Origin: Campylobacteraceae bacterium
GTDB taxonomy: Bacteria; Campylobacterota; Campylobacteria; Campylobacterales; Sulfurospirillaceae
Assembly (NCBI GenBank): GCA_026988975.1
Contig: JALSKH010000048.1
Span: forward strand, 23,466-87,465
Reading direction: 5' to 3'
DNA length: 64,000 nucleotides
Positions 2-2,772 of the stretch are shown one piece after another. How positions within the stretch are numbered: position 1 is the first letter of the stretch; each line of letters starts with the position of its first letter. The position numbers and the translations under genes are program-made. The notes under the pieces are model-generated. The model had not been told where the DNA came from, made no database searches, and saw only the letters and a list, made by a program, of their open reading frames with translations.

Positions 2-631
2 CCAAACTTTTTTGGTTATCAACGATTTGGCAGAGAGGGGGATAATTATAGAGTTGGAAGAGAGATATTAGAGCGAAAAAGAAGAGAGCGAAAAAGAAAG
101 ATGAAAAACTTTTTTATCAGTGCTTATCAGAGCTATCTTTTTAACACATGGCTCTCAAATCGTCTGAAAATTGGACATATTTTAGAGGGTTTTGATGACA
201 AAGACGCTGCTAAAGCTCTTGGTTTTTCACTAGAATTAGTCAAAGAGTTAAAAAAACAGAAAAACTTTTTGAAACTATTTAAAGGAGATATCGCCCATCA
301 CTATCCTGCTGGAAAACCTTTTGTTTGTGAAGAATTGGGTGATGAAGTTGAAAGATTTAGAAAAAAAGAGATAACACTGACAGGTTGGCTACCAGGTCAC
401 AGAAGCATGAGGTGTGAGGACTTTGCAAAAGAGTTAGAAGAAGAAGTTTATGACGAAGCCGAGCCTTTTCTAGATCAAATGAATGGTACAAGAAGATTTG
501 CTTGGATATTTTTAGATGGAGTAGAGAGTCAATACAAAGAGGAAGAGAATTGGTTTGAGATGCACTTTACGCTGCCAAAAGGCTCATATGCTACAGTTGT
601 ATTGGAAGAGTTAACACACAATATGCTATAA
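2..631 (+). CDS. truD: tRNA pseudouridine(13) synthase TruD, C-terminal part (5' end outside window)
   Basis: Frame 2 is open from the window edge. The translation PNFFGYQRFG...FFISAYQSYLFNTWLSNRL carries TruD-type motifs. Stop TAA at 629-631. Confidence 0.85.
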   Translation, partial: PNFFGYQRFGREGDNYRVGREILERKRRERKRKMKNFFISAYQSYLFNTWLSNRLKIGHILEGFDDKDAAKALGFSLELVKELKKQKNFLKLFKGDIAHHYPAGKPFVCEELGDEVERFRKKEITLTGWLPGHRSMRCEDFAKELEEEVYDEAEPFLDQMNGTRRFAWIFLDGVESQYKEEENWFEMHFTLPKGSYATVVLEELTHNML

Positions 632-652
632 TTTTACAAAGGTACGATGAGT

Positions 653-725
653 GACTACCTGCCCATACTTTTTTATTGTAAGTTGTTTTTTTAAATGACC
701 TATAATTAAAAAAGTATGGGCAGGA
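653..725 (+). repeat. 73-nt hairpin module, copy 1 (occupies the P3 position of rnpB)
   Basis: Identical base for base to 806-878. It folds as a ~31-bp hairpin (CCTGCCCATACTTTTTT.../...AAAAAAGTATGGGCAGG) with G-U wobbles and a TTTT loop. Confidence 0.9.
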
Positions 726-805
726 GGAAAGTCCGGGCTGCTATGAGGCAAGGTTCCGCCTAACGGACGGCTGGGGTAACCCAAGGGATAGTGCAACAGA
801 GAGGA

Positions 806-878
806 GACTACCTGCCCATACTTTTTTATTGTAAGTTGTTTTTTTAAATGACCTATAATTAAAAAAGTATGGGCAGGA
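806..878 (+). repeat. 73-nt hairpin module, copy 2 (occupies the P12 position of rnpB)
   Basis: Perfect direct repeat of 653-725. It lies between AGTGCAACAGAGAG and GGTGAAACGGTG, which is where P12 sits in type-A RNase P RNA. Confidence 0.9.
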
Positions 879-1076
879 AAAGGTGAAACGGTGAGGTAAG
901 AGCTCACCAGAGTTTAGAGTAATCTAAACTGCTATGTAAACCCAACCTGCAGCAAGAATGGATTGGTTTAAGCCTCATATTTTTACCATTCGCTAGAGTG
1001 TTATCGTAAGATAACAAGTAGATAAATAGTCGCTCAAGACAGAACCCGGCTTATAGTCGTACCTTTGGATACTTAA

Positions 1077-2682: not shown

Positions 2683-2772
2683 ATATCATATCTCTTTTAA
2701 GGTCATCTCGTGAGGCTCAGACCAACGGGAGGATTTGCCCTCTAAGAGATGACCTTAAAAGAGATATAATAT
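2683..2772 (+). repeat. Family A hairpin element, copy A1
   Basis: Perfect 20-bp stem (2689-2708 with 2747-2766), extendable to about 26 bp with one mismatch. It encloses the 38-nt loop CGTGAGGCTCAGACCAACGGGAGGATTTGCCCTCTAAG. Homologous to 39324-39403 and 21373-21482. Confidence 0.85.

What the first reader, a model, noticed from the sequence alone, without database searches (positions are those of the whole stretch)
638..1066. RNase P RNA carries the same 73-nt hairpin module twice, at the P3 and P12 positions
Seen in the sequence: 653-725 and 806-878 are identical base for base (GACTACCTGCCCATACTTTTTTATTGTAAGTTGTTTTTTTAAATGACCTATAATTAAAAAAGTATGGGCAGGA). Each copy folds into a hairpin of about 31 bp with a TTTT loop. 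The distal half pairs only through G-U wobbles plus one A-C mismatch, which argues for structure at the RNA level. Copy 1 sits between P2 (GACTA) and the P4 strand GGAAAGTCCGGGC, which is the P3 position. Copy 2 sits between AGTGCAACAGAGAG and GGTGAAACGGTG, which is the P12 position. In known type-A RNase P RNAs, P3 and P12 are unrelated peripheral helices. Two identical AT-rich modules in one essential ribozyme therefore imply recent insertion or gene conversion of a mobile hairpin, or selection for a duplicated binding site. Repeat insertions in P12 have been reported for cyanobacterial RNase P RNAs, but I do not know of an identical P3/P12 pair. The module inflates the RNA to about 429 nt. 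It also creates the spurious repeat-containing ORF 626-907(-).
Basis: partly seen in the sequence, partly recalled or inferred. Interest (0 to 1): 0.62.

Follow-up and report, generated by a model that had tools for sequence, protein, structure and literature searches.

The report
Twin hairpin inserts in RNase P RNA
The essential tRNA-processing ribozyme of this Sulfurospirillum-like bacterium carries the same 67-nt hairpin on two unrelated arms, and related species show the two copies are kept alike by copying between them, which is an unusual but probably tolerated decoration.

Summary
Observation confirmed. Window 639-1069(+) is a full-length class A RNase P RNA gene (257.7 bits). The exact 73-nt repeat (653-725 and 806-878) forms the apical parts of helices P3 and P12.

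It is not unique to this genome. Two other species (G068, G073) have full-length P3/P12 pairs. Three more (G002, G004, G069) have a long P3 module plus a short P12 on the same CCUGCCCAUA foot. Two (G062, G074) have it in P3 only.

Within a genome the interiors match 45/45, 44/45 and 43/44. Between genomes they match only 32-35/45. No other copy exists in those genomes. This pattern indicates repeated copying between P3 and P12 (gene conversion), not double insertion from an abundant mobile element.

The 18-20-bp foot is identical across genera whose ribozyme cores are 85-88% identical.

A similar foot caps hairpin 2 of a dispersed, covarying two-hairpin leader element. That element is homologous to the long P12 of other members of the family.

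Whether the modules stay in the mature RNA or are cut out, as in Thermodesulfatator indicus P12, is untested.

Verdict: a new variant of a known kind; moderately interesting.

The parts
639..1069 (+). rnpB, RNase P RNA class A, 431 nt. It is the only rnpB match in the genome.
   Evidence: RF00010 at 257.7 bits, model positions 1-367. One match in G000. rnpA is present elsewhere in the genome.
627..632 (+). TATAAT, a -10-like box 7 nt upstream of the rnpB 5' end, inside the end of the upstream truD-like ORF (2-631).
   Evidence: Read directly from the sequence. The consensus scan found no -35/-10 pair. A promoter role is inferred.
650..656 (+). P2 5' strand, AGUGACU. The C at 655 is unique within the genus, where the others have U.
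   Evidence: CM alignment. Table of P2 strands across relatives.
653..725 (+). Repeat copy 1 (73 nt). It covers the last 4 nt of P2, the junction A, the whole P3 hairpin and 1 nt beyond.
658..724 (+). P3 module: a 67-nt hairpin with an 18-bp perfect foot (CCUGCCCAUACUUUUUUA / UAAAAAAGUAUGGGCAGG) and an imperfect A/U-rich distal part.
726..738 (+). GGAAAGUCCGGGC, the conserved J3/4-P4 5' strand immediately 3' of copy 1.
   Evidence: CM alignment.
796..805 (+). ACAGAGAGGA, the conserved J11/12 immediately 5' of copy 2.
   Evidence: CM alignment.
806..878 (+). Repeat copy 2 (73 nt). It covers the base of P12 (GACUA), the whole apical P12 hairpin and 1 nt beyond.
811..877 (+). P12 module: a 67-nt hairpin identical to 658-724.
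1028..1034 (+). P2 3' strand, AGUCGCU. The G at 1029 compensates the C at 655. Other genus members have a U-A pair at this position.
626..907 (-). Spurious 93-aa ORF antisense to rnpB, created by the repeat.

Best explanation
The two 73-nt copies are real apical extensions (expansion segments) of helices P3 and P12 in the single, otherwise canonical class A RNase P RNA gene of a Sulfurospirillaceae-like bacterium.

The module has two parts. One is a sequence-conserved G/C-containing foot of 18-20 bp (CCUGCCCAUACUUUUUUAUU ... AAAAAAGUAUGGGCAGG). The other is a freely diverging A/U-rich tip. The module replaces the short native hairpin caps of P3 (GCUUGAG..CUCAAG) and P12 (CCG..CGG).

P3 seems to be the primary site. 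Every species with the foot in P12 also has it in P3, and none has it in P12 alone. The two copies lie 153 nt apart as direct repeats. I infer that they are kept alike by recurrent non-reciprocal copying, meaning intragenic gene conversion or template switching between the two palindromes. Deletion between the repeats would remove P4-P11 and should be lethal, so only conversion products survive.

In this genome the identity also covers the 5' flank GACUA. That sequence is the native P12 base in relatives. In P2 it is accommodated by a compensating change on the far strand.

At the RNA level both hairpins extend helices whose tips point away from the catalytic core. They are therefore most likely tolerated passengers, either retained or trimmed, rather than parts of the catalytic machinery.

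Shown: the existence of the repeat, its position, its distribution, the contrast between within-genome and between-genome identity, and the absence of donor copies.
Inferred: the conversion mechanism, its direction and neutrality.
For: Position:
- The CM places the two copies in P3 and P12.

The gene looks functional:
- Its score is within the range of its relatives, 203-286 bits.
- It is the only rnpB in a 97%-complete genome.
- rnpA is present.

The same architecture occurs in independent assemblies of other species:
- G068 (an uncultured Sulfurospirillum MAG, genus g5): P3 and P12 modules differ by one inserted A.
- G073: the two modules differ by one indel and one substitution.
- G069, G002 and G004: a long P3 module plus a 26-30-nt P12 on the same foot.
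- G062 and G074: P3 only.

Identity contrast:
- Interior identity within genomes is 45/45, 44/45 and 43/44.
- Between genomes it is 32-35/45.
- The sister species G068 and G069 match 40/44.

No donor copies:
- No further copy of the module exists in G000.
- None exists in G068, G069 or G073.
- In genus g5 the foot occurs only in rnpB.

Distribution:
- The rnpB core tree groups by genus, so module carriers are scattered.
- The foot is 100% identical between genomes whose cores are 85-88% identical, and 70% for G074.

P2:
- G000 has a compensated C-G pair where all other genus members have U-A. Copy 1's flank is therefore genuine sequence.
Against: - The exact identity in G000 rests on one MAG assembly.
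- Within-genome identity could also come from a recent one-off duplication in each of three lineages. That would still be copying between sites, but not 'recurrent' copying.
- The strict conservation of the foot across genera is not what a neutral passenger predicts. It hints at a function or at recent horizontal spread.
- The C-G pair in P2 also occurs naturally in some g5 species. The 5-nt flank identity may therefore be coincidence rather than a conversion tract.
- There is no covariation evidence for the distal stem.
Confidence: 0.7

Rival explanations
1. The modules are processing elements, like the intervening sequences of 23S rRNA. Under this reading the conserved foot is a recognition and cleavage site for a double-strand-specific RNase (RNase III). 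Both A/U-rich hairpins would be excised after transcription. The mature ribozyme would be a non-covalent three-piece RNA of roughly 20 + 85 + 190 nt. Identity of the two copies would be favoured because both must be recognised by the same enzyme. This is compatible with gene conversion as the homogenising mechanism.
For: - Precedent: the A/U-rich P12 expansion of Thermodesulfatator indicus RNase P RNA is excised in vivo and in E. coli, giving a fragmented but functional RNA (PMC9945441).
- Each module offers 18 bp of perfect helix plus 12 further pairs.
- The foot is more conserved than the ribozyme core.
- An RNase III gene is present in G000.
- Distribution among relatives is patchy, as for rRNA intervening sequences.
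Against:
- A cut in P3 would free a 5' fragment of only about 20 nt, held only by P1/P2. No natural example of that is known to me.
- The foot could be conserved for DNA-level reasons instead.
Confidence: 0.25
2. Each copy arose by independent transposition of a mobile palindromic element (MITE-like or REP-like) into two permissive sites. The copies are identical because both insertions are recent and came from one active master copy.
For: - A dispersed hairpin with nearly the same ends (TCTGCCCATAAAT..ATTTATGGGCAGA, 57-62 nt) occurs 1 to about 20 times per genome in the genus, while the reversed control pattern gives 0.
- The rnpB modules hit a profile of these copies at E of about 1e-3.
- Module carriers are scattered on the rnpB tree.
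Against: - No copy of the rnpB-type module exists outside rnpB in G000, G068, G069 or G073.
- The dispersed hairpins are never free-standing. All 21 aligned copies sit at one fixed position (hairpin 2) of a larger conserved unit.
- No target-site duplication flanks the module. The native hairpin is replaced rather than interrupted.
- Three lineages each having two fresh insertions at exactly the same two sites is unparsimonious.
Confidence: 0.1
3. Assembly artefact: the second copy, or its exact identity, was created by the metagenome assembler.
For: G000 is a 243-contig MAG, and reads could not be checked. rnpB is not found at all in 4 of the 14 genus MAGs. That may or may not reflect assembly trouble at such repeats.
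Against: - The same two-site architecture appears in independent assemblies from other projects and species: G068 (CAZLXQ010000059.1) and G073 (NZ_JALSKT010000070.1).
- A 73-nt repeat is shorter than ordinary reads and shorter than the largest k-mers of metagenome assemblers (general knowledge).
- The changed P2 strand next to copy 1 is compensated about 375 nt away.
Confidence: 0.03

Closest known systems
P12 expansion segment of Thermodesulfatator indicus RNase P RNA (PMC9945441)
   Same: An A/U-rich extension of roughly 70-90 nt at the tip of P12 in a bacterial class A RNase P RNA. It is absent from the closest relative, and the ribozyme remains functional.
   Different: That case involves one helix only, with no second copy in P3 and no evidence of a repeat family. 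Its excision was shown experimentally, whereas nothing is known here about processing.
STRR heptamer repeats in P12 of heterocyst-forming cyanobacterial RNase P RNA (Vioque 1997; from my own knowledge, listed among the references of PMC2858038)
   Same: A genome-wide repeat family is found inside P12 of rnpB, and P12 tolerates it.
   Different: STRR are tandem heptamers. Here there is no tandem repeat but a long palindromic hairpin, and it is duplicated in P3.
Intervening sequences of 23S rRNA helices 25 and 45 (Campylobacter, Salmonella, Coxiella and others; PMC4990558, PMC2672173)
   Same: Long hairpins replace the cap of a peripheral helix of an essential structured RNA. They are patchily distributed among relatives and are homogenised among copies within a genome.
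   Different: Those lie in rRNA and are excised by RNase III. Their copies sit in different operons, not at two different helices of one molecule.
Bacterial MITEs and Correia-type elements (review PMC10969869)
   Same: A small palindromic non-coding element, with related copies dispersed in some genomes of the genus.
   Different: No target-site duplication, no free-standing copies and no identified transposase. In four carrier genomes the module exists only in rnpB.
Concerted evolution of repeated genes by gene conversion (for example rRNA operons; general knowledge)
   Same: Paralogous copies are more alike within a genome than orthologous copies are between genomes.
   Different: Here the 'paralogues' are 67-nt helix tips at two non-homologous positions inside a single 431-nt RNA gene.

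Membership tests
Bacterial RNase P RNA class A (RF00010) | Full-length match to the covariance model above the gathering score. | tested here: met
   257.7 bits against a gathering score of 100; model 1-367; E = 3.5e-84.
Bacterial RNase P RNA class A (RF00010) | Conserved P4 strands and J11/12 (GGAAAGUCCGG, ACAGAACCCGGCUUA, ACAGA). | tested here: met
   All are present and aligned.
Bacterial RNase P RNA class A (RF00010) | A protein partner RnpA is encoded, and rnpB is single-copy. | tested here: met
   PF00825 hit at 78.4 bits. One rnpB in G000.
MITE / mobile palindromic element | Several dispersed copies in the same genome. | tested here: not met
   Only the two rnpB copies exist in G000. 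The same holds in G068, G069 and G073.
MITE / mobile palindromic element | Target-site duplication flanking the element. | tested here: not met
   The flanks are GACUA / A at both sites with no direct repeat. The native hairpin is replaced.
MITE / mobile palindromic element | A cognate transposase or full-length element with the same ends. | tested here: inconclusive
   Half-sites in the genus are nearly all paired about 46 nt apart. No pairs at kb spacing were seen, but no protein search was done.
Excised expansion segment / intervening sequence | A long helix replaces the cap of a peripheral helix and is patchily distributed among relatives. | tested here: met
Excised expansion segment / intervening sequence | Post-transcriptional excision, so that the mature RNA is fragmented. 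| not testable with these tools
Cyanobacterial STRR insertion in P12 | Tandem heptanucleotide repeats. | tested here: not met
   Tandem Repeats Finder reports none in 600-1100.
Concerted evolution by gene conversion | Within-genome identity of the two copies exceeds between-genome identity of orthologous copies, in independent lineages. | tested here: met
   45/45, 44/45 and 43/44 within genomes against 32-35/45 between them, in three species of two genera.
Concerted evolution by gene conversion | No external donor explains the identity. | tested here: met
Concerted evolution by gene conversion | Conversion tracts or mosaics are visible in population samples. | not testable with these tools
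   No further strains were found. The only hint is the 5-nt flank identity.

The most novel reading that the evidence does not exclude
The conserved foot is a processing signal. Both hairpins would be cut out after transcription, probably by RNase III. The working RNase P RNA of these bacteria would then be a three-piece ribozyme held together only by base pairing. That would be the first natural bacterial RNase P RNA split in both the catalytic domain (P3) and the specificity domain (P12).
Probability: 0.22. Interest if true: 0.8.

Novelty: new variant of a known kind. Interest (0 to 1): 0.6.

Why it matters
RNase P RNA is a textbook conserved ribozyme, and P3 and P12 are treated as unrelated peripheral helices. 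Here one module sits on both, in several species, and the two copies evolve in concert. This shows that recombination acts between non-homologous positions inside one small essential RNA gene, and that helix tips behave as exchangeable cassettes.

It offers natural test material for three questions:
- How much extra helix the catalytic and specificity domains tolerate.
- Whether bacterial RNase P RNA can work as a fragmented RNA, as in T. indicus.
- Why a 20-bp foot sequence is kept more strictly than the catalytic core.

The side observation that the long P12 of related genera is homologous to a dispersed, covarying leader element upstream of start codons links an essential ribozyme to a repeat family. 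That link may be of independent interest.

Practically, such repeats may explain why rnpB is missing from several MAGs of the genus, and they create spurious ORFs in annotation.

Tried and rejected
- **More carriers in public data.** Two metagenome scans with junction-specific patterns found nothing new. The single hit is the G062 contig already in hand. An exact look-up of the neighbouring methyltransferase found no other assembly.
- **Missing rnpB in four MAGs.** I asked whether rnpB of the four genus MAGs without a CM hit is broken at the repeat. A DNA search found nothing. Isolated CTGCCCATAC hits in G001, G005, G008 and G004 lie in coding sequence and are chance matches.
- **Strand bias of G-U pairs.** I tested this as evidence of RNA-level selection. 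It is not consistent across species, so I rejected it as general evidence.
- **Covariation in the module.** The foot is invariant and the tip is not alignable, so the test is uninformative.
- **Horizontal transfer of the rnpB core.** G000 has 6 private states within its genus, 3 of them g5-like. Module-free G007 (7 and 3) and G013 (5 and 2) look the same, so there is no signal.
- **Rfam match for the dispersed unit.** None was significant.
- **Insert in P3 of G004.** It contains motifs resembling the dispersed unit but does not reach significance with the profile.
- **Survey of the order.** The pattern for the P12 module was not found in 400 further sampled genomes.
- **Tandem repeats.** None were found.

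Full report
**Observation**

Window 653-725 and 806-878 are identical over 73 nt, 153 nt apart. Each copy holds a 67-nt hairpin (658-724; 811-877). As RNA it forms 30 bp with a UUUU loop, three G-U pairs, one A/C mismatch and one bulged U. Its energy is -34.5 kcal/mol, z = -10.

Rfam's class A RNase P model matches 639-1069(+) end to end at 257.7 bits. It places copy 1 as an insertion in the P3 hairpin and copy 2 as an insertion in the P12 hairpin.

The gene is the only rnpB in a 97%-complete, 243-contig genome, and rnpA is present. A TATAAT box lies at 627-632, inside the end of a truD-like ORF. The 93-aa ORF 626-907(-) is an antisense artefact of the repeat.

**Relatives**

The genome belongs to a Campylobacterales family. 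Its MAGs are labelled Campylobacteraceae, Sulfurospirillum or Sulfurimonas. The genus with complete 2.3-3.2 Mb genomes is presumably Sulfurospirillum itself.

Most rnpB genes of the family have a short P3 (GCUUGAG..CUCAAG) and either a short or a roughly 75-nt longer P12. A minority carry the foot CCUGCCCAUAC..GUAUGGGCAGG:

| Genome | Genus | P3 | P12 |
|---|---|---|---|
| G000 | g1 | 67 nt | 67 nt |
| G068 (= L100) | g5 | 66 nt | 67 nt |
| G073 (= L077) | groups with g5 on the rnpB tree | 65 nt | 66 nt |
| G069 | g5 | 65 nt | 26 nt |
| G002 | g1 | 68 nt | 30 nt |
| G004 | g1 | about 150 nt | 30 nt |
| G062 (= L104) | g5 | 62 nt | native |
| G074 (= L050) | another family (core 70% identical) | 62 nt | unrelated |

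No genome has the foot in P12 without having it in P3. The P12 module was not found in 400 further sampled genomes of the order. A tree of the rnpB core with P3 and P12 tips removed groups sequences by genus, so carriers are scattered.

**Concerted evolution**

I stripped the 11-nt foot from each side and compared the interiors:

- P3 and P12 of one genome match 45/45 (G000), 44/45 (G068) and 43/44 (G073).
- The same helix compared between these genomes matches only 32-35/45.
- The sister species G068 and G069 match 40/44.

None of these genomes has another copy of its module. In genus g5 the foot occurs only in rnpB. The identity therefore comes from copying between the two sites, not from two insertions of an abundant element. 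This is the signature of gene conversion, or at the least of repeated recent duplication from one helix to the other.

In G000 the identity also covers GACUA on the 5' side. GACUA is the native base of P12 in relatives (G009). In P2 the other nine rnpB genes of the genus have GAUUG or GGUAG/GAUAG. The resulting C at 655 pairs with a G at 1029, where the others have U-A. This may be a conversion tract running from P12 into P2 that was later compensated. However, C-G at that pair also occurs in some g5 species, so coincidence is possible. Either way it shows that the sequence next to copy 1 is genuine.

**Conservation pattern**

The first 20 and last 17 nt of the module are identical in G000, G068 and G073, whose cores are 85-88% identical. 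The 11-bp foot is identical even in G074, whose core is 70% identical. The tip diverges faster than the core.

There is no useful covariation in the module and no consistent strand bias of G-U pairs across species. The foot is therefore constrained or recently spread, but the data do not say whether this acts at the RNA or the DNA level.

**Link to a dispersed repeat**

A search of the genus for the foot uncovered 57-62-nt hairpins with ends TCTGCCCATAAAT..ATTTATGGGCAGA. There are about 20 copies in G008, about 12 in G004, 6 in G001, 3 in G002 and 1 each in G000, G006 and G010. The reversed control pattern gives 0.

These hairpins are not free-standing. All 21 aligned copies occupy the second hairpin position of a conserved unit of about 90 nt. 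The unit consists of an A/T-rich stretch, hairpin 1, the near-invariant linker GCUUUAGU(C)GNGAGGAAU, hairpin 2, and AGGGGAC or AGGAGAA followed by ATG 6-8 nt later. It lies directly upstream of unrelated housekeeping genes.

The usual form has a short hairpin 2. BLAST finds at least 15-27 copies per genome in most genomes of g1 and g5, and fewer (2-10) in some of them and in g2 and g6. It finds none in g3 (0/28) or g4 (0/1).

Both hairpins covary strongly: 90% of cells are paired, and the covariation score is 0.63. Shuffled controls score 0.22 and slid controls score 0.22 or less, with 0 of 500 shuffles as high. No Rfam family matches.

A profile of G000's short-form units hits the long P12 of G009, G049, G016, G015 and the second rnpB of G003 at E = 5e-15 to 3e-9. 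In g3 and g4 the P12 copy is almost always the only copy in the genome; G035 has two matches.

The rnpB modules hit a profile of the long-hairpin units only weakly, at E of about 1e-3. The relation between the module and the dispersed hairpin is therefore probable, and its direction is open. In g5 the foot exists only in rnpB. Either rnpB is the source, or the two share a constraint.

**Mechanism and function**

*Best reading (0.7).* The modules are tolerated extensions of two outward-pointing helix tips. P3 is the primary site, and the copies are homogenised by intragenic conversion. Deletion between the direct repeats would remove P4-P11, so it is never seen.

*Main rival or complement (0.25).* The foot is a processing signal and the hairpins are excised. 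This happens to the A/U-rich P12 expansion of Thermodesulfatator indicus (PMC9945441). RNase III is encoded in G000.

*Lesser rivals.* Independent transposition into both sites is disfavoured by the lack of donors and of target duplications (0.1). An assembly artefact is unlikely (0.03), because the same architecture appears in independent assemblies of other species and the repeat is shorter than a read.

**Comparison with known cases**

Repeats or expansions in P12 are known: cyanobacterial STRR and T. indicus. Peripheral-helix intervening sequences are well known in 23S rRNA. I found no report of one module at both P3 and P12, nor of concerted evolution between helices of one RNase P RNA. 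The library does not cover subscription journals.

I class this as a new variant of a known kind, with moderate interest. It would be considerably more interesting if the modules prove to be excised.

Noticed in passing
Outside the window: G000 contigs, e.g. L180 (G000:C98:5080-5340), L181-L186; also L036-L041 and L194-L213 in relatives.: A dispersed unit of about 90 nt sits directly upstream of start codons of unrelated housekeeping genes. It consists of an A/T-rich stretch, hairpin 1, the near-invariant linker GCUUUAGU(C)GNGAGGAAU, hairpin 2, and a Shine-Dalgarno sequence AGGGGAC/AGGAGAA followed by ATG. It is sometimes tandem. BLAST finds at least 15-27 copies per genome in most genomes of g1 and g5, fewer in some of them and in g2 and g6, and none in g3 or g4. 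Both hairpins covary strongly (score 0.63 against 0.22 for controls). There is no Rfam match.
   Followed up: partly
rnpB P12 of G009 (L025), G015 (L018), G016 (L022), G049 (L171), G003 second copy (L035).: The roughly 75-nt longer P12 of these RNase P RNAs is homologous to the dispersed unit (nhmmer E = 5e-15 to 3e-9). In genera g3 and g4 the P12 copy is almost always the only copy in the genome; G035 has two matches. Either P12 captured the unit before it was lost elsewhere, or the dispersed family derives from P12.
   Followed up: partly
L032:1180-1335 (G004 rnpB, minus strand).: P3 of G004 is about 150 nt. It has the same CCUGCCCAUAC foot but a nested extra insert containing CGUAGCUUUAG and a GAGCUUUGCUC hairpin reminiscent of the dispersed unit. 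The CM hit therefore started too late and mis-called the 5' end.
   Followed up: partly
G003: L012 and L035.: One genome of the genus has two rnpB genes. The second is only 63% identical to the window's rnpB, which suggests contamination, a second organism in the bin, or a transferred copy.
   Followed up: no
G001, G005, G008, G012 (same genus).: No rnpB was found by CM or by DNA search in 4 of 14 genomes that are 85-92% complete. These include G008, the genome with the most dispersed long hairpins. The gene may sit on short unbinned contigs.
   Followed up: partly
G000:C129:3627-4127.: A copy of the dispersed unit lies immediately upstream of the RNase III gene of this genome.
   Followed up: no
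window 2683-2772.: The hairpin repeat noted earlier in this window (family A) is a different sequence and is unrelated to the rnpB module.
   Followed up: partly
G010:C3:14739-14784 and G010:C34:45998-46046.: Two hairpins of about 46-49 nt with ends CCTGACCATAAGAAA..TTTCTTATGGTCAGG. This may be another small palindromic family with a similar foot.
   Followed up: no
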